From: Vicugna vicugna
Taxonomy: Eukaryota
Reading direction: 5' to 3'
NCBI GenBank assembly: GCA_013265495.1
Contig: MU057654.1
Location: forward strand, 9,789-73,788
Length of the DNA: 64,000 bases
Every line of letters starts with the position of its first letter. Within the stretch, counting starts at the first letter, position 1. The notes under the pieces are model-generated. The model saw only the letters and a list, made by a program, of their open reading frames with translations, was not told where the DNA came from and ran no database searches. Below are positions 16,557 to 30,903 of this stretch, one piece after another. The translations under genes were made by a program, and so were the position numbers.

Positions 16557-16611
16557 CGGGCCCTGATTGCAACCACTGAGCTACCCAGCCTCTTCCCTTG
16601 TCTGTCTGCAG

Positions 16612-16684
16612 GTCTGCGAGGCTGTTGTTCCAGGTACTCTGCTGAGTTACGAAAAAAGGAGGAACCTGTCCAGAATCCCCGCAG
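16612..16684 (+). other. Non-coding exon 2 of TCEAL2-type gene
   Basis: Acceptor cttgtctgtctgcag| and donor cccgcag|gtcagt. Confidence 0.8.
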
Positions 16685-17059
16685 GTCAGTGAAAGAGGGG
16701 GGCACTGGACAGGGACTCAGAGGGGTAAGGAGTATGAAGGTCAGGCCTTGGCAGAAGTGCGGGCCCCACTGCCCACTTGCCAACACATTTACTCACACTC
16801 TGAACAAAAGTAAGGAAAAATAGCAGGGCCGGCCAGAGAGATGGTTGGCTCACGTGCAGAAGGACTGGTGGGGTAAAAGGTGGCAGAAGTCACACTAGGA
16901 GGGCCGGGCCAGGTCCGGGGAGCCCTGACAAGCAGCGAGAAGCAACTGCTATTCCGACCTGCATTCCAACCCCCAAGCCCTCAGTCTTCCTTGTCTCCTT
17001 TTTGTCTTCTCTTCCCCTCATCCCACCCCCAGGACATGAAAAGGAGGGGACATCTCAAC

Positions 17060-17692
17060 ATGGAAAAACTCTGCAGTGAAAATGAGAACCCAGGAAAGAT
17101 GGAAAACAGAGAACAGCCACTGGATGCGGGAAAGCCAGGAGTAGCTTGTACTGTGGAAGACAAGGAAAAGTTAGAAAACAAAGGAAGGATTGATCACAAG
17201 GGAAAGATAGAAGATAAGGACGTACTAAAGGATAAGGAAAAGCCAGAGAGTGAGGCAAAGCCAAGAGAAGGAAAGCCAGTGAGCCAGGGAAAGCCAGAGA
17301 ATGAGGGAAAACCAAAAGAAGGAAAGCTAGAGAGCGAGGGAAAGGCAAAAGAAGGAAAGCCAGCCAGTGAACCAAGGGCTGCAGGAAAGCGCCCAGCAGG
17401 GGACGATGTACCCAGGAAGGCCAAAAGGAAAACCAACAAGGGGCTGGCTCAGTGTCTGAAGGAATACAAGGAGGCCATACACGATATGCATTTGAGCAAT
17501 GAGGAGATGATAAGAGAATTTGATGAGATGGCCAGGGTGGAGGATGAGGTGAAGAAAACCAGACAAAAATTGGGGGGGTTTATGTGGATGCAAAAAAGTT
17601 TACAGGACCCTTTCTACCCCCGGGGCCCAAGGGAACTCAGGGGTGGCTGCAGGGCCCCACAAAGGGGCTTTGAAGACATTCCTTTTGTGTAG
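17060..17692 (+). CDS. TCEAL2: Transcription elongation factor A-like protein, TCEAL2/TCEAL4 type, 210 aa (218 aa if ATG 17036 is used)
   Basis: MEKLCSENE...[38 protein letters not shown]...[30 protein letters not shown] matches the TCEAL2/4 subfamily; TCEAL2 chosen from linkage to BEX5; acceptor at 17032; AATAAA 17858-17863. Confidence 0.85.
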
Positions 17693-19019
17693 TGCCCTCA
17701 GCAGGCATTTGCCAGGCCCTGTGCTTTCACGTTTTTGAGATACTTTGATTTAGGTGTCACTCTTGTTATCAACAACAACTTTTGACCCAACTAGAGTGCT
17801 CTATCAGTAGGGGATTTTCAGCCTTATGCTTTGCAAAGACGTTATGAATCTTGGAAAAATAAAGCAGCTTATAATATTACCTGCAGAACTGGCCCAGTTT
17901 TGTTAAAAAAAAAACAAATTTATATAGTACATCTGTGCACAGGAAAAATAGAAAATGTTGTTCACTGAATGGTTAACAGTGGTTTTCTGAGTTGTGAGAT
18001 TGTGGGTGATTTACTTTCTTTGTTTTCTTTCTACTCATCTGTTTATTTTTTTCCCTAAAGAGCACAGATTACGTTTCTTATAAAGAAATACTAAAATATA
18101 AAAAAGGAAAACAATATATAAAAAGCAATACAAAGAATTGTTTACTGAGTTTATGGAGGCAATGGCAACACTTATGATTCTTGTTGTCAGAACTTAAAAT
18201 GTTATGTAAAATTCACATTACTTCTGGAACTCGTATCTGGAGGAATCATCCTGGCAGTTATAACAGATCCATTGCCGTAAAGGACAGTCTTGTCATCTGT
18301 GAAATGGGGATAATAATTGTTTCATAGGGTTGCTGAGTGGATTAGATGAGTTACTGAGTATGTCAGCTGTGTTTGGCTGGCTTCTACCTTTTTCCTTGTA
18401 CTAGCAGGACCAGGACTCTATCAGACACTTGGAAGAGGGTTGAGGTACATCTCACCTGTGCCCAGGAATAAGTCCAGGAAGCCAAAAGGTGGGTACCACC
18501 CTCCCCTAGGTATTTCCCTGTCTGCTGGGCTCTGTGCCCCTACTTATGAGTCCTGCACCCTATCCAGGCCCTCACTGCTGCTGGTGGACTGATTTCCTCA
18601 AAGTGACAAAGCCCAGTTGATTTACCTGAAGTCCTCAGTGCCCCAAACCTGCCCCACCCCATGACACCTATAGAAGTGAGGATAAAGCCCTTTTCCTCAC
18701 TTTAGAGTTATACTTACCCACTGAGTAACACCTCATTGATACTTCAGTCCCTAATGAATTTCAGATTTTTTTCGCAAAACAATCCATTTTGTGTTTGTTG
18801 CTTTCCAAATGTTTTTGCATACAGCCATCTTTCCACCAGATTCAGATATGAAAATCTGGGATAAAATTTGAGTGGCACAAACTGCTTTTCTCATCTGTCA
18901 GTGCCTTGTCTGCTTGATTCCTCTTTCCTTAGAGGAAATTATGTCCTAGGAGACTCCTGCCAGGTCCTGAATTAAAAGGTTAGCACATCTACCTACACTT
19001 ATGTTTTTTTAAGCTACCT

Positions 19020-19278
19020 TTTTTAAAATTTTTTATTGACATATAGTTGATTTACAATGTTGTGTTAATTTCTGGTGTGCAGTGTAGTGATTTATTTATA
19101 CATATATACATATTCCTTTTTATGTTTTTTCATTATAGGTTATTACTATATACCTACAATATAGGTATCAAATATAGTTCCCTGTACTATACAGTGGGAC
19201 CTTGCAGTTTATCTATTTTATATATAGTAGTTAGTATCTGCTAATCCCAATCTCCCAATTTATCCCTCCACCCCCTTA
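19020..19278 (-). mobile_element. Truncated artiodactyl-type L1 3' end
   Basis: atagttgatttacaatgttgtgttaatttctggtg...atagttccctgtactatacagt; not seen in the paralogous right arm. Confidence 0.8.
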
Positions 19279-19279
19279 A

Positions 19280-29030: not shown

Positions 29031-29134
29031 GTTTTCTGTTTATTTATTTGGTTTTAAATGGAGGTACTGGGGATTGAACCCAGGACCTCGTGCATGTTAA
29101 GCATGCACTCTACCACTGAACTATACCCTCCCCC
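29031..29134 (-). mobile_element. tRNA-derived SINE (camelid type)
   Basis: Reverse complement ggggagggtatagttcagtggtagagtgcatgcttaacatgcacgaggtcctgggttcaatcccc plus A-rich tail; 10-bp TSD ctggttttag at 29021-29030 and 29135-29144. Confidence 0.9.
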
Positions 29135-29779
29135 CTGGTTTTAGTTATTTTTTAATGACAAACATAATCCATATCATTTAGGAAAAAGTGGAGATGAGTG
29201 AGCAAAGGAAATAAAAAGAATCACACGTGGTGGGAGCCATAGGACAGTAGAGGACCCAGGAGATGCAGCAGCAGTGCCCACTGACATGGTTACAATGAGG
29301 GGAAGAGATGGGGATGAGTGCACCTGCAGAGGAATGGCATGTAAGTACCTAACCATCAAGCGATTGGCCTCATTTCTGAGAGCAGGCGAGACCTATTTTC
29401 TGGCTACCTTGCAGGAAAAACCATTGCCCAATATTTAGTGCACACATTTCCAGAGTTTTCTTTGTGCCAAATGCATGATACAGACATTTATATTTTCACA
29501 AAAATGGGCTGATACTGTATATGTGGTTCTGAAAACTGTTTTTCCTTTATTGTTATTTTACAGTGTACCATGAACATCTGTTTCATGCACGTGGCTGAAA
29601 ATCCCCTACTAAAACACAGAGAGCACTGTAGTTGGGTCAAAAGGCTGCTGGTAACAAGAGTGACACCTAAAGCAAAGTATCAGCTTAAGGTTAAAGCACA
29701 TAGCCTGGCAAATGCCTGCCAGGGAAAGCAGGGTCAGCAACATTCTCACCAGAGGAGTCAGAATTGAAGGCCAAAGGCA

Positions 29780-30371
29780 TTAAAGATATGGGATATCATG
29801 TAAGCCCCTTTGGCCCCTACCTCCGCCTCTCATTCCCCTGACACCCCGTTGCCCCCTTGGGGTGAAGGGATCCTGTACATCTCTTTGCATCCAATGAAAA
29901 CCACCCATTTTCTGTTTTTTCCTTAGCTCCTCCTGAGCCCGTGACATATCTCCACATTCTCTCATCATCTCCTCACTGCCCAGATGCCTATGTAAGTCCT
30001 CGGTCCTTGGGGGAATCATCCGTCCCCCTGTCTGTTTTTCTTTTTGCTTTCCGGGGCACATAATCTTCAGCCGGGCGCTTTTCAGCAGCCCGTGGCTCGC
30101 TCTCCAGCTTTGCCTGGGATTCAGGCTTGCCCTCACCATGTGGTTTTCCCTCGGATTCAGACTTGCCCTGCTTTTCTTGCTTCCCCTCACCATATGGTGA
30201 TCCCTCATCTTCTGGCCGTCCCTCATTCTGGAGCTTTCGCACGTGTTCTGACTTCTCCACTTCCAGCTTTTCTTCCTCATCTGACTTCCCTTCATTTTCA
30301 GGCTCTACTTCATCTTCTGGCTTTCCCTCGCTTTCCAGCTTTCCTTCATTTTCATTGCAGAGTTTTTCCAT
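29780..30371 (-). pseudogene. TCEAL6: TCEAL3/5/6-type gene with a frameshift near 30001 (127-aa truncated ORF 30371-29988; canonical C-terminus in another frame to 29780)
   Basis: [24 protein letters not shown]...[30 protein letters not shown] in one frame, EDLHRHLGSEEMMRECGDMSRAQEELRKKQKMGGFHWMQRDVQDPF...GLHDIPYL in another; AATAAA on minus strand at 29546-29551. TCEAL6 chosen from linkage to BEX5/TCEAL2. Confidence 0.8.
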
Positions 30372-30761
30372 GTTGAGATGTCGCCTCCTTTTCCTGTGCT
30401 GGGAGGATGGGGTGGGGTGGGGAGAGAAGACAAAGAGGAGACAAGAGAGACTGAGGGCCTGGGGGTGGAATGCAGCTCCGGATAGCACTTGTATCTCGCC
30501 CTTGTCAGGGATTCCCTGACCTGGCCTGGCCTTCTTAGTGTGCCTTGTGACACACTTTAGCACACCGTTCCTCCTGTACATGAGAGCCAACCACTTCCAG
30601 GGCAGGCCCTGCCACCTTCTGTACCAACCTTCAGCGTGGAAGGAAGTGTGTATATTACATGTAGTGGGGGGTGGGCAGTGGGGCCCTCAAATTCTGCCTA
30701 AGCTGTGCCCTCCAAACCTGTCCCCTCAACTTGTCCAGTGCCCCATCCCACTTTCACTGAC

Positions 30762-30828
30762 CTGCAGGGACTCTGGACAGGTTCCTCTTTTCCTAGTCTT
30801 GCAGAGTGCTGGGAACAGACACGCGGAC
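30762..30828 (-). other. Non-coding exon 2 of TCEAL6-type gene (67 nt)
   Basis: Minus-strand acceptor gtctgtctgcag| and donor ccctgcag|gtcagt. Confidence 0.8.
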
Positions 30829-30903
30829 CTGCAGACAGACAGGAGACAGAGGCAGAGGCTGAGCGCTCAGTGAACTGAGATCCCTTTCCTGAATCTGGGC
30901 CTT

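What the first reader, a model, noticed from the sequence alone, without database searches (positions are those of the whole stretch)
16557..30903. Possible flip-flop inversion cassette of 14.3 kb between the identical arms
Seen: both gene bodies lie inside the spacer and both promoters point inward. A crossover between the arms would invert the spacer, leave both genes intact and only swap which distal flank each coding region faces. From memory, the human order has TCEAL6 next to and co-oriented with BEX5, whereas here the TCEAL2-type gene holds that position. That would fit at least one such inversion, but the human order needs verifying.
Basis: inference. Interest (0 to 1): 0.8.

Follow-up and report, generated by a model that had tools for sequence, protein, structure and literature searches.

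The report
Identical inverted promoters flank TCEAL pair
Two related genes on a mammal's X chromosome point at each other and carry identical 1.4-kb promoter copies, a well-known kind of repeat that can flip the DNA in between; their order here is swapped compared with the published human map, but no flipping was seen directly and an assembly error is not excluded.

Summary
Arms 15176-16568 and 30892-32284 are 1393 nt and 100% complementary, with 14323 nt between them. They sit inside older inverted homology of only 64-72%.

The locus is the BEX5 / TCEAL2 / TCEAL6 / ZMAT1 part of the X-linked BEX/TCEAL cluster. The arms hold a CpG-rich promoter core. Both coding exons lie in the spacer and read inward. 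The arms are of TCEAL3/5/6 type, whereas the left gene body is of TCEAL2/4 type. So the left gene is a chimaera, made by recent non-allelic gene conversion and/or crossover.

The published human map has TCEAL6 next to and co-oriented with BEX5 (PMC1274310 Table 1; PMC2724270). Here the TCEAL2/4-type body holds that place, while BEX5 and ZMAT1 keep their human-like relative strands. That fits at least one inversion through the arms.

The assembly has gaps, so a misoriented spacer stays possible. The TCEAL6-type gene is frameshifted.

This is a candidate new member of a known kind, the inverted-repeat-mediated inversions common on the X. It is not a programmed cassette. Interest is modest.

The parts
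3812..4153 (+). BEX5 coding exon (113 aa), the left anchor gene
   Evidence: ORF. Pfam BEX E 3.6e-32. In one search, 43 proteins passed E<=1e-10; nearly all that carry a source name are called BEX5, and the weakest is 'BEX1-like' at 43% identity.
14970..15175 (.). Old, diverged inverted homology outside the left arm (partner 32285-32485)
   Evidence: With the arms excluded, blastn aligns 14970-15107 with 32485-32341 at 72% over 147 columns, E 1.5e-18. The boundary sequences are visibly homologous.
15176..16568 (+). Left arm: 1393-nt block identical to the right arm. It holds the CpG-rich promoter core (15800-16199) and the presumed first non-coding exon and intron 1 of the left gene. Its sequence is of TCEAL3/5/6 type.
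   Evidence: 100%. GC 0.605 overall, with GC 0.74-0.77 and CpG o/e 0.80-0.95 at 15800-16199. The only other long copy in the genome is 80% identical and lies upstream of the TCEAL3-like gene on C8919. Short matches at 15909-16075 to two further loci.
16569..30891 (.). Spacer of 14323 nt that a crossover between the arms would invert
16611..16741 (+). Putative second non-coding exon of the left gene, just inside the spacer
   Evidence: tblastn of N-terminal extensions of predicted relatives: P0001 residues 12-36 match 16611-16685, and P0003 residues 4-43 match 16622-16741. The mirror match lies at 30818-30732. These are predicted protein models only; there is no RNA evidence.
17060..17692 (+). 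TCEAL2/4-type coding exon (210 aa, intact); TCEAL2 by position
   Evidence: Named hits are TCEAL4 or TCEAL2, best 96%. It is 99% identical in protein to the TCEAL4-like gene on C8919. DNA identity is 96-100% over 17159-17658, and homology of the flanks runs 16403-18583. AATAAA at 17858.
19276..19996 (.). Inner end of the old inverted homology (partner 28072-27328, 69.6%)
   Evidence: Over its full length it matches only its partner in the whole genome; its first ~150 nt is an interspersed repeat.
29780..30368 (-). TCEAL3/5/6-type coding exon, frameshifted; TCEAL6 by position
   Evidence: The N-terminal and C-terminal halves lie in two frames. Against the intact TCEAL3-like gene on C8919 it shows a 3-bp deletion near 30255, a 5-bp deletion between 30002 and 30001, a 3-bp deletion between 29992 and 29991, and a stop at 29988-29990. 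AATAAA at 29551 on the - strand.
30892..32284 (-). Right arm, identical to the left. It runs collinear with the TCEAL6-type body when aligned to the TCEAL3-like locus.
   Evidence: A single alignment 32107-29155 against C8919:225587-222704, 86.7% over 2985 columns, crosses the arm's inner edge without a break.
32285..32485 (.). Old, diverged inverted homology outside the right arm

Best explanation
This is the TCEAL2-TCEAL6 gene pair of the X-linked BEX/TCEAL cluster. The two genes lie tail to tail between BEX5 and ZMAT1.

They are old inverted duplicates, about 5 kb each at 64-72% identity. Within that old homology, a 1393-nt block has recently been made identical. The block covers the CpG-island promoter, the presumed first non-coding exon and most of intron 1. 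The cause is non-allelic homologous recombination, with the TCEAL3/5/6-type sequence as donor. The left gene is therefore a chimaera: a TCEAL6-type 5' end joined to a TCEAL2/4-type body.

The perfect inverted repeat is a substrate for a crossover within one chromatid. Such a crossover flips the 14.3-kb spacer and exchanges the two coding exons between two identical promoters, so neither mRNA changes. Only the distal neighbourhood of each coding exon changes (BEX5 side or ZMAT1 side).

The two bodies are exchanged relative to the published human order, while the outer genes keep their relative strands. So at least one such inversion most likely happened in this lineage, perhaps in the same repair event that left the identical tract.

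Shown: the anatomy, the donor type, the chimaerism, and the swap relative to print. Inferred: that the swap arose in the arms, that the assembly's orientation is right, and where the exons lie. Nothing shows that both orientations exist today. These would be rare germ-line accidents, not a regulated switch.
For: - Arms: 1393 nt at 100%, bounded on both sides by homology of only 64-72%. This is the signature of a recent recombination tract within older paralogous sequence.
- Copy number: only two 100% copies in the 2.03-Gb genome. The next copy is 80% identical and lies upstream of the TCEAL3-like gene.
- Right side: arm plus TCEAL6-type body are collinear with the TCEAL3-like locus, 86.7% over 2985 columns.
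- Left side: the body and its flanks (16403-18583) match the TCEAL4-like locus instead, at 96-100% in the coding part and 56-79% on the 3' side.
- Outer frame: BEX5 is on +. ZMAT1 zinc-finger exons are on + at C604:146-157 kb.
- Human order in print: ZMAT1(-), TCEAL2(+), TCEAL6(-), BEX5(-) (PMC1274310 Table 1; PMC2724270; PMC7586669 Fig. S2 header). Spacing is similar. In human it is 11.3 kb from BEX5 to WEX2 and 16.7 kb from 5' end to 5' end. Here it is about 11.6 kb and 15.5-17.1 kb.
- Precedents: human inversions mediated by inverted repeats of 1.6 kb (HsInv0347) and 4.7 kb (HsInv0393, ARMCX6, 14.1 kb) (PMC3961182). About 50% of primate X-palindrome spacers differ in orientation between species (PMC8327919).
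Against: - There is no read-level, PCR or second-assembly evidence for either orientation. The one read-laying run gave nothing, and all 24 runs offered were contigs.
- A crossover inside identical arms creates no new sequence, so short reads could not tell the orientations apart anyway.
- The assembly is gapped: N runs of 1150, 500 and 421 appear in fetched pieces. A 1.4-kb perfect repeat is a classic place for a misoriented block or for copies collapsed to a false 100%.
- Gene conversion alone explains the identical arms without any inversion.
- The comparison with human rests on printed tables from old builds. It also rests on my recalled equivalences WEX1 = TCEAL2 and WEX2 = TCEAL6.
- In Fig. 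S2 of PMC7586669 only the text labels were readable, not the arrows.
- The exon positions rest on predicted protein models, not RNA.
Confidence: 0.55

Rival explanations
1. Assembly misorientation. The true order is human-like (BEX5, TCEAL6 body, TCEAL2 body, ZMAT1), and the scaffolder placed the 14.3-kb block the wrong way round between two repeat copies it could not span. The identical arms would still reflect gene conversion, possibly exaggerated by collapse of the two copies.
For: The genome comes in 12405 pieces with N runs of variable size, one ending right at the window's start. The arms are exactly identical with clean edges. No alternative contig with another junction exists in the assembly (5 matches, none an alternative joint).
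Against: There is no N in the 64-kb window. Mate pairs or reads longer than 1.4 kb would fix the orientation, and orientation differences between species are common at X-linked inverted repeats (PMC8327919).
Confidence: 0.25
2. Live flip-flop. Both orientations segregate today, or have toggled repeatedly among close relatives, as at FLNA-EMD or HsInv0393.
For: A perfect 1.39-kb inverted repeat on the X. Zero differences imply homogenisation within about 0.5-1 Myr (my estimate from recalled mammalian substitution rates of 1-2.2e-9 per site per year). Published X-linked inversions are mostly recurrent, at rates of 3.4e-6 to 2.7e-4 per generation (preprint 10.1101/2021.12.20.472354, passages). 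Winter & Ponting note one inversion involving rat WEX2.
Against: No observation of a second orientation. The arms are shorter than nearly all documented cases; the smallest repeat in the parts of Table 1 of PMC3961182 that I saw is 1.6 kb.
Confidence: 0.2
3. No crossover in the arms. Either the swap arose by an inversion with breakpoints outside the genes, or the coding bodies were overwritten by TCEAL4 and TCEAL3. The identical arms would then be an unrelated later gene conversion.
For: Coding regions of TCEAL2/4 and of TCEAL3/5/6 are known to homogenise (PMC7586669). The left coding exon is 96-100% identical to the TCEAL4-like gene. Flipping the whole two-gene block gives the same order and strands.
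Against: Homology of the left unit to the TCEAL4-like locus runs well beyond the high-identity tract into introns and the 3' flank (16574-18583). So the whole unit is natively of TCEAL2/4 type, not a converted TCEAL6. This route also needs two independent events where one suffices.
Confidence: 0.1
4. Programmed invertible cassette driven by a site-specific recombinase.
For: Only the layout.
Against: I scanned 13 of the window's 21 ORFs of at least 90 aa against Pfam, and none gave a recombinase match. No such system is known in mammalian germ lines (established knowledge). The arms are ordinary paralogous promoter sequence.
Confidence: 0.01

Closest known systems
HsInv0393, a human polymorphic inversion at ARMCX6 on Xq22.1 (Aguado et al. 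2014, PMC3961182; Tables 1-2 and text passages seen)
   Same: X-linked. By my recollection it lies in the same eutherian BGW gene region, with ARMCX6 being the GASP10 of Winter & Ponting. It is almost the same size (14.1 kb), is mediated by inverted duplicates, and the exonic sequence inside the repeats is 100% identical, so the mRNA is unaffected.
   Different: Its repeats are 4.7 kb, against 1.39 kb identical here. Both orientations were shown there by inverse PCR in humans (frequency 0.36) and chimpanzees; here no second orientation has been seen.
HsInv0241 (AQP12A/AQP12B) and HsInv0347 (THE1C repeats of 1.6 kb, 7.1-kb inversion), same paper
   Same: HsInv0241 exchanges the first exons of two inverted paralogues and only alters their relative position, which is the effect proposed here. 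HsInv0347 shows that repeats of about the length seen here can mediate a polymorphic inversion.
   Different: Both are autosomal. The AQP12 repeats are 13 kb. Both were genotyped experimentally.
FLNA-EMD inversion (HsInv0389; X palindrome P24)
   Same: Two intact genes lie in a spacer between X-linked inverted repeats. It has flipped repeatedly in eutherian evolution without harming the genes (cited).
   Different: The repeats are 11.3 kb and the spacer 47 kb. The genes lie wholly in the spacer and do not share their promoters with the repeats.
Concerted evolution of 5' ends in BEX/WEX(TCEAL)/GASP genes (Winter & Ponting 2005, PMC1274310)
   Same: The same gene family and the same phenomenon: 5' non-coding parts are homogenised between paralogues while coding parts differ ('chimaerism'). 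Their Fig. 3B analyses the first exons of WEX2, WEX8 and WEX1. The paper notes one inversion involving rat WEX2.
   Different: The passages I saw report recent events between WEX2 and WEX8 in primates and carnivores. They do not describe a perfect inverted repeat between the neighbours TCEAL2 and TCEAL6, nor a swap of their bodies.

Membership tests
BEX/TCEAL (BGW) cluster genes with 5'-end concerted evolution | Genes belong to the BEX/TCEAL family in the X-linked cluster | tested here: met
   Pfam BEX for all three genes. Named relatives are TCEAL2/4 and BEX5. ZMAT1 lies on the same scaffold.
BEX/TCEAL (BGW) cluster genes with 5'-end concerted evolution | The 5' non-coding region is far more alike between paralogues than the coding and 3' regions | tested here: met
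   100% over 1393 nt, against 64-72% for the rest of the inverted homology.
BEX/TCEAL (BGW) cluster genes with 5'-end concerted evolution | Chimaerism: the 5' part and the coding part have different closest paralogues | tested here: met
   The arm is closest to the 5' region of the TCEAL3-like gene (80%). The left coding exon is closest to the TCEAL4-like gene (99% protein identity).
BEX/TCEAL (BGW) cluster genes with 5'-end concerted evolution | BGW promoter motif present | tested here: inconclusive
   No motif search was done, because I had no tool-given motif. The only hint is that 15909-16075, inside the CpG core, matches two further loci in the genome.
Inverted-repeat (NAHR) mediated, recurrent inversion locus | High-identity inverted repeats flank the segment | tested here: met
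Inverted-repeat (NAHR) mediated, recurrent inversion locus | Both orientations documented within or between species | tested here: inconclusive
   The order in this assembly differs from the printed human order. There is no sequence-level comparison, no reads, and assembly error is not excluded.
Inverted-repeat (NAHR) mediated, recurrent inversion locus | Breakpoints map inside the repeats | not testable with these tools
   This needs the other orientation's sequence from a relative. No mammalian genome collection was on hand.
Inverted-repeat (NAHR) mediated, recurrent inversion locus | The inversion leaves the genes intact | tested here: met
   By geometry: the promoter core lies in the arms and the coding exons in the spacer. 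The existing frameshift in the right gene is unrelated to the arms.
Large X-chromosome palindromes (Jackson et al. 2021, PMC8327919) | Arms of 8 kb or more at very high identity | tested here: not met
   The identical arms are 1.39 kb, and the full old homology is about 5 kb at 64-72%. The paper's set spans 8-140 kb.
Programmed invertible cassette (site-specific recombinase) | A recombinase gene and short specific sites | tested here: not met
   13 of the 21 ORFs of at least 90 aa were scanned against Pfam, with no recombinase match. The arms are long paralogous promoter sequence.

The most novel reading that the evidence does not exclude
The TCEAL2-TCEAL6 spacer toggles again and again in this lineage and perhaps across mammals, as FLNA-EMD does. 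Gene conversion keeps the two promoters identical, so each flip is neutral for the transcripts. Each flip still exchanges which coding exon sits in the BEX5-side and which in the ZMAT1-side regulatory neighbourhood. This would be a natural enhancer-context swap between two paralogues. It would also be a hidden cause of muddled TCEAL2/TCEAL6 orthology, and perhaps of the decay of the TCEAL6-type copy.
Probability: 0.15. Interest if true: 0.5.

Novelty: new member of a known kind. Interest (0 to 1): 0.3.

Why it matters
If the swap is real, it adds a small, clean case in which an inversion exchanges coding exons between two identical promoters in the eutherian BEX/TCEAL cluster. That region is already known for promoter gene conversion and, at ARMCX6, for a polymorphic human inversion.

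It matters in practice for orthology calls: TCEAL2, TCEAL4 and TCEAL6 names in automatic annotation are inconsistent. It also matters for assembly quality control at short perfect inverted repeats. Studies of how neighbourhood shapes the expression of these brain-expressed genes would need to take it into account as well.

It does not open a new mechanism.

Tried and rejected
- Reads: the look-up of sequencing runs (one search was one base over the limit) listed 24 runs. Of these, 20 hold the stretch or part of it and 14 hold at least half of its words, under three organism codes. All are kept as contigs and none as raw long reads.
No exon, depth, variant or orientation evidence exists. Contigs could not have resolved orientation anyway, because a crossover in identical arms makes no new words.
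- Earlier notes of this scan: nothing on this genome or sequence. The word search returned only bacterial and phage switches, which did not bear on this.
- Rfam on the whole window: a single tRNA-like match, which is a SINE.
- Tandem repeats over 14000-33500: nothing at the arm edges.
- Pfam on other ORFs: only an L1 ORF1 fragment passes its cut-off.
I found ZMAT1 by a family search instead and with a 1-kb fetch.
- Which outer flank is natively TCEAL6-type: I tried to decide this by comparison with the TCEAL3-like and TCEAL4-like upstream regions. Paralogy ends inside the arm (arm position 178), so there is no information.
- Literature: searches for TCEAL6/TCEAL2/BEX5/inversion (3 papers; 4 papers) found no description of a TCEAL2-TCEAL6 inversion or inverted repeat. 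The main text of the Porubsky preprint has 0 mentions of TCEAL, BEX or ARMCX; its supplements were not seen.
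Full report
**1. The observation.**
The repeat finder reports a single inverted pair of at least 200 nt in the window: 15176-16568 and 30892-32284. The pair is 1393 nt long, 100% complementary and 14323 nt apart. The window has no N. The finding's coordinates are the spacer plus 12 nt of each arm.

A gapped self-alignment shows that the identical block is embedded in older, much more diverged inverted homology.
- Outward: 14970-15107 pairs with 32485-32341 at 72% (E 1.5e-18).
- Inward: 16588-17986 pairs with 30853-29417 at 65.6%, 18080-19009 with 29047-28070 at 64%, and 19276-19996 with 28072-27328 at 69.6%.

The last stretch matches only its partner over its full length in the whole genome; its first ~150 nt is an interspersed repeat. 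So there is a degenerate palindrome of about 5-kb units around a 7.3-kb unique centre. A 1.39-kb core of it has been made perfect.

**2. What the genes are.**
With the standard code, the window holds three ORFs of the BEX/TCEAL family.
- 3812-4153 (+) is BEX5. In one search, 43 proteins passed E<=1e-10, and nearly all that carry a name are called BEX5.
- 17060-17692 (+) is an intact 210-aa protein of the TCEAL2/4 type. Its named relatives are called TCEAL4 or TCEAL2 without consistency, best 96%.
- The third gene lies on the minus strand at 30368-29780 and is of the TCEAL3/5/6 type.

The printed alignment in the supplement of PMC7586669 shows the motifs that separate the two types, and each gene here fits one of them.

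The third gene is broken. Aligned to the intact TCEAL3-like paralogue on scaffold C8919, it has:
- an in-frame 3-bp deletion near 30255;
- a 5-bp deletion between 30002 and 30001 that shifts the frame;
- a further 3-bp deletion;
- a stop at 29988-29990.

The conserved C-terminal part continues in another frame.

**3. The wider frame.**
The window is C604:9789-73788 of a 2.03-Gb assembly in 12405 pieces. Three matrin-type zinc-finger exons lie on the + strand of the same scaffold at 146-157 kb. One of them is ZMAT1 by its named relatives (118 proteins at E<=1e-5, the listed names almost all ZMAT1 or its paralogue KRCC1, best 97-100%).

The order on this scaffold is therefore BEX5 (+), TCEAL2/4-type (+), TCEAL3/5/6-type (-), ZMAT1 (+).

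**4. Anatomy of the arms.**
Each arm has GC 0.605, with a CpG-rich core at 15800-16199 (GC 0.74-0.77, CpG observed/expected 0.80-0.95). N-terminal extensions of predicted relatives map to 16611-16741 and, in mirror, to 30818-30732. This suggests a second non-coding exon just inside the spacer on each side. The coding exons and the first AATAAA signals (17858, and 29551 on the minus strand) lie in the spacer.

Both units thus read inward from the arms. This is inferred from sequence; no RNA evidence was obtained.

**5. Where the arm sequence comes from.**
In the whole genome the arm has only two 100% copies. The next best is 80% identical over arm positions 178-1393 and lies upstream of the TCEAL3-like gene on C8919. 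Two other loci match only 15909-16075.
- The right arm and the TCEAL6-type body align to the TCEAL3-like locus as one collinear stretch (32107-29155, 86.7% over 2985 columns). This alignment crosses the arm's inner edge without a break.
- The left gene aligns from 16403 to 18583 to the TCEAL4-like locus on C8919. Identity is 96-100% in 17159-17658, 77-90% in the intron and exon-2 zone, and 56-79% in the 3' flank.

So the whole left unit inward of the arm is natively of TCEAL2/4 type, and the arm in front of it is of TCEAL6 type. The left gene is a chimaera.

This is the 'coding and non-coding chimaerism' that Winter & Ponting described for this family (PMC1274310; passages seen). PMC7586669 reports coding homogenisation of Tceal2 with Tceal4, and of Tceal3 with Tceal5 and Tceal6, which matches the high-identity coding tracts seen here.

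**6. Comparison with the published order.**
Table 1 of PMC1274310 lists the following for human:

| Gene | Coordinates | Strand |
|---|---|---|
| KIAA1789 | 99910469-99958857 | - |
| WEX1 (NM_080390) | 100152572-100154538 | + |
| WEX2 | 100167309-100169228 | - |
| BEX5 | 100180542-100182792 | - |

The text of that paper says that orders and orientations show no rearrangements between human, dog and mouse 'except for one [inversion], involving rat WEX2'. PMC2724270 states that TCEAL6 lies 10,742 bp from BEX5. The header of Fig. S2 of PMC7586669 reads TCEAL2 TCEAL6 BEX5 (only the labels were readable, not the arrows).

That WEX1 is TCEAL2, WEX2 is TCEAL6 and KIAA1789 is ZMAT1 is my recollection; it is consistent with these three sources.

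Turned to the window's orientation, human reads BEX5 (+), TCEAL6 (+), TCEAL2 (-), ZMAT1 (+). The window has the two inner bodies exchanged while the outer genes and the spacing agree. In human it is 11.3 kb from BEX5 to WEX2 and 16.7 kb between the 5' ends. Here it is about 11.6 kb and 15.5-17.1 kb.

**7. How it most likely works.**
A perfect inverted repeat of 1.39 kb on one chromatid can pair and cross over. The outcome is inversion of the spacer. The arms hold the promoter core and the start of both transcription units, and they are identical. An inversion therefore hands each coding exon to an identical promoter and changes neither mRNA; only the distal context changes.

The abrupt fall from 100% to 64-72% at both edges shows a recent recombination tract. 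With zero differences in 1393 nt and recalled mammalian rates of 1-2.2e-9 per site per year, the last homogenisation is younger than about 0.5-1 Myr (my estimate, 95% bound).

A single repair event with crossover could have produced both the chimaeric left gene and the swap. Further conversion would then have completed the identity. That sequence of events is inferred.

**8. Rivals.**

*(a) Misassembly.* The assembly has N runs of 1150, 500 and 421 in the pieces I fetched, one of them ending at the window's start. A 1.4-kb perfect repeat is a typical place for a block to be set the wrong way round or for two copies to be collapsed to a false 100%. I put this at about 0.25.

*(b) Other routes.* The swap may have come from an inversion with breakpoints outside the arms, or from overwriting of the bodies by TCEAL4 and TCEAL3. 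The long flanking homology of the left unit to the TCEAL4-like locus argues against overwriting, and this route needs more events (about 0.1).

*(c) A flip-flop still segregating.* This is plausible from precedent but unobserved (about 0.2; it is compatible with the main reading).

*(d) A programmed cassette.* No recombinase appears among the 13 of 21 ORFs of at least 90 aa that I scanned, and nothing of the kind is known in mammals.

**9. What could not be done.**
All 24 sequencing runs offered were contigs. No collection of mammalian genomes was on hand.

The decisive evidence is therefore missing: reads or PCR products spanning an arm, and the same locus in long-read assemblies of relatives. 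Supplements that may bear on the order in other species were not seen as data. These are the drawn arrows of Fig. S2 of PMC7586669, Additional file 1 of PMC1274310, and the supplements of the Porubsky preprint.

**10. Known relatives and novelty.**
Inversions mediated by inverted repeats, often recurrent, are well described and are enriched on the X.
- PMC3961182 genotyped HsInv0393 at ARMCX6 (4.7-kb repeats, 14.1-kb inversion, both orientations in human and chimpanzee).
- The same paper covers HsInv0347 (1.6-kb repeats) and HsInv0241, which exchanges the first exons of AQP12A and AQP12B.
- PMC8327919 finds about 50% of orientable X-palindrome spacers inverted between primate species.
- The Porubsky preprint gives rates of 3.4e-6 to 2.7e-4 per generation.
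- Promoter and 5' UTR gene conversion in this very family has been known since 2005.

My two searches found no paper on a TCEAL2-TCEAL6 inverted repeat or inversion. At best this is a new member of a known kind, and it is still unproven as an inversion.

**Scores.** Interest is 0.3. Confidence in the main reading is 0.55.

Noticed in passing
window 29780-30368 (-): The TCEAL6-type gene is frameshifted (5-bp deletion, stop at 29988-29990). An ATG at 30295 opens a 171-aa frame that runs through the alternative reading of the acidic repeat region into the conserved C-terminal part. Whether that frame is ever translated is unknown.
   Followed up: partly
window 17159-17658 and G000:C8919:233610-234109: The TCEAL2/4-type coding exon is 96-100% identical in DNA to the TCEAL4-like gene on another scaffold, while its flanks drop to 56-90%. 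This is a second, inter-locus conversion tract, independent of the arms.
   Followed up: partly
window 29059-29130 (-): A tRNA-like match (Rfam tRNA, 48.8 bits) with 81-84% copies in three other fetched loci. It is most likely a tRNA-derived SINE in the 3' flank of the TCEAL6-type gene.
   Followed up: no
G000:C8256:24124877-24125434; C6805:2578-2988 and C6918:5131-5541: A further open TCEAL2/4-like copy (91%, 182 aa, no stops) lies on a 24-Mb scaffold. Separately, two small contigs carry mirror-image, equally scoring, stop-ridden TCEAL-like copies. These may be a retrocopy and a pair of duplicate or haplotype contigs.
   Followed up: no
G000:C604:8639-9788 (just left of the window): An N run of at least 1150 ends exactly where the window starts. 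The scaffold is gapped, which bears on how far the orientation of repeat-flanked blocks can be trusted.
   Followed up: partly
window 60211-63524: LINE-1 remains: an ORF1-like fragment (Pfam Transposase_22, E 3.8e-12) at 62994-63524 (-), and an ORF at 60211-60774 that looks to me like the end of L1 ORF2 (no Pfam match).
   Followed up: no
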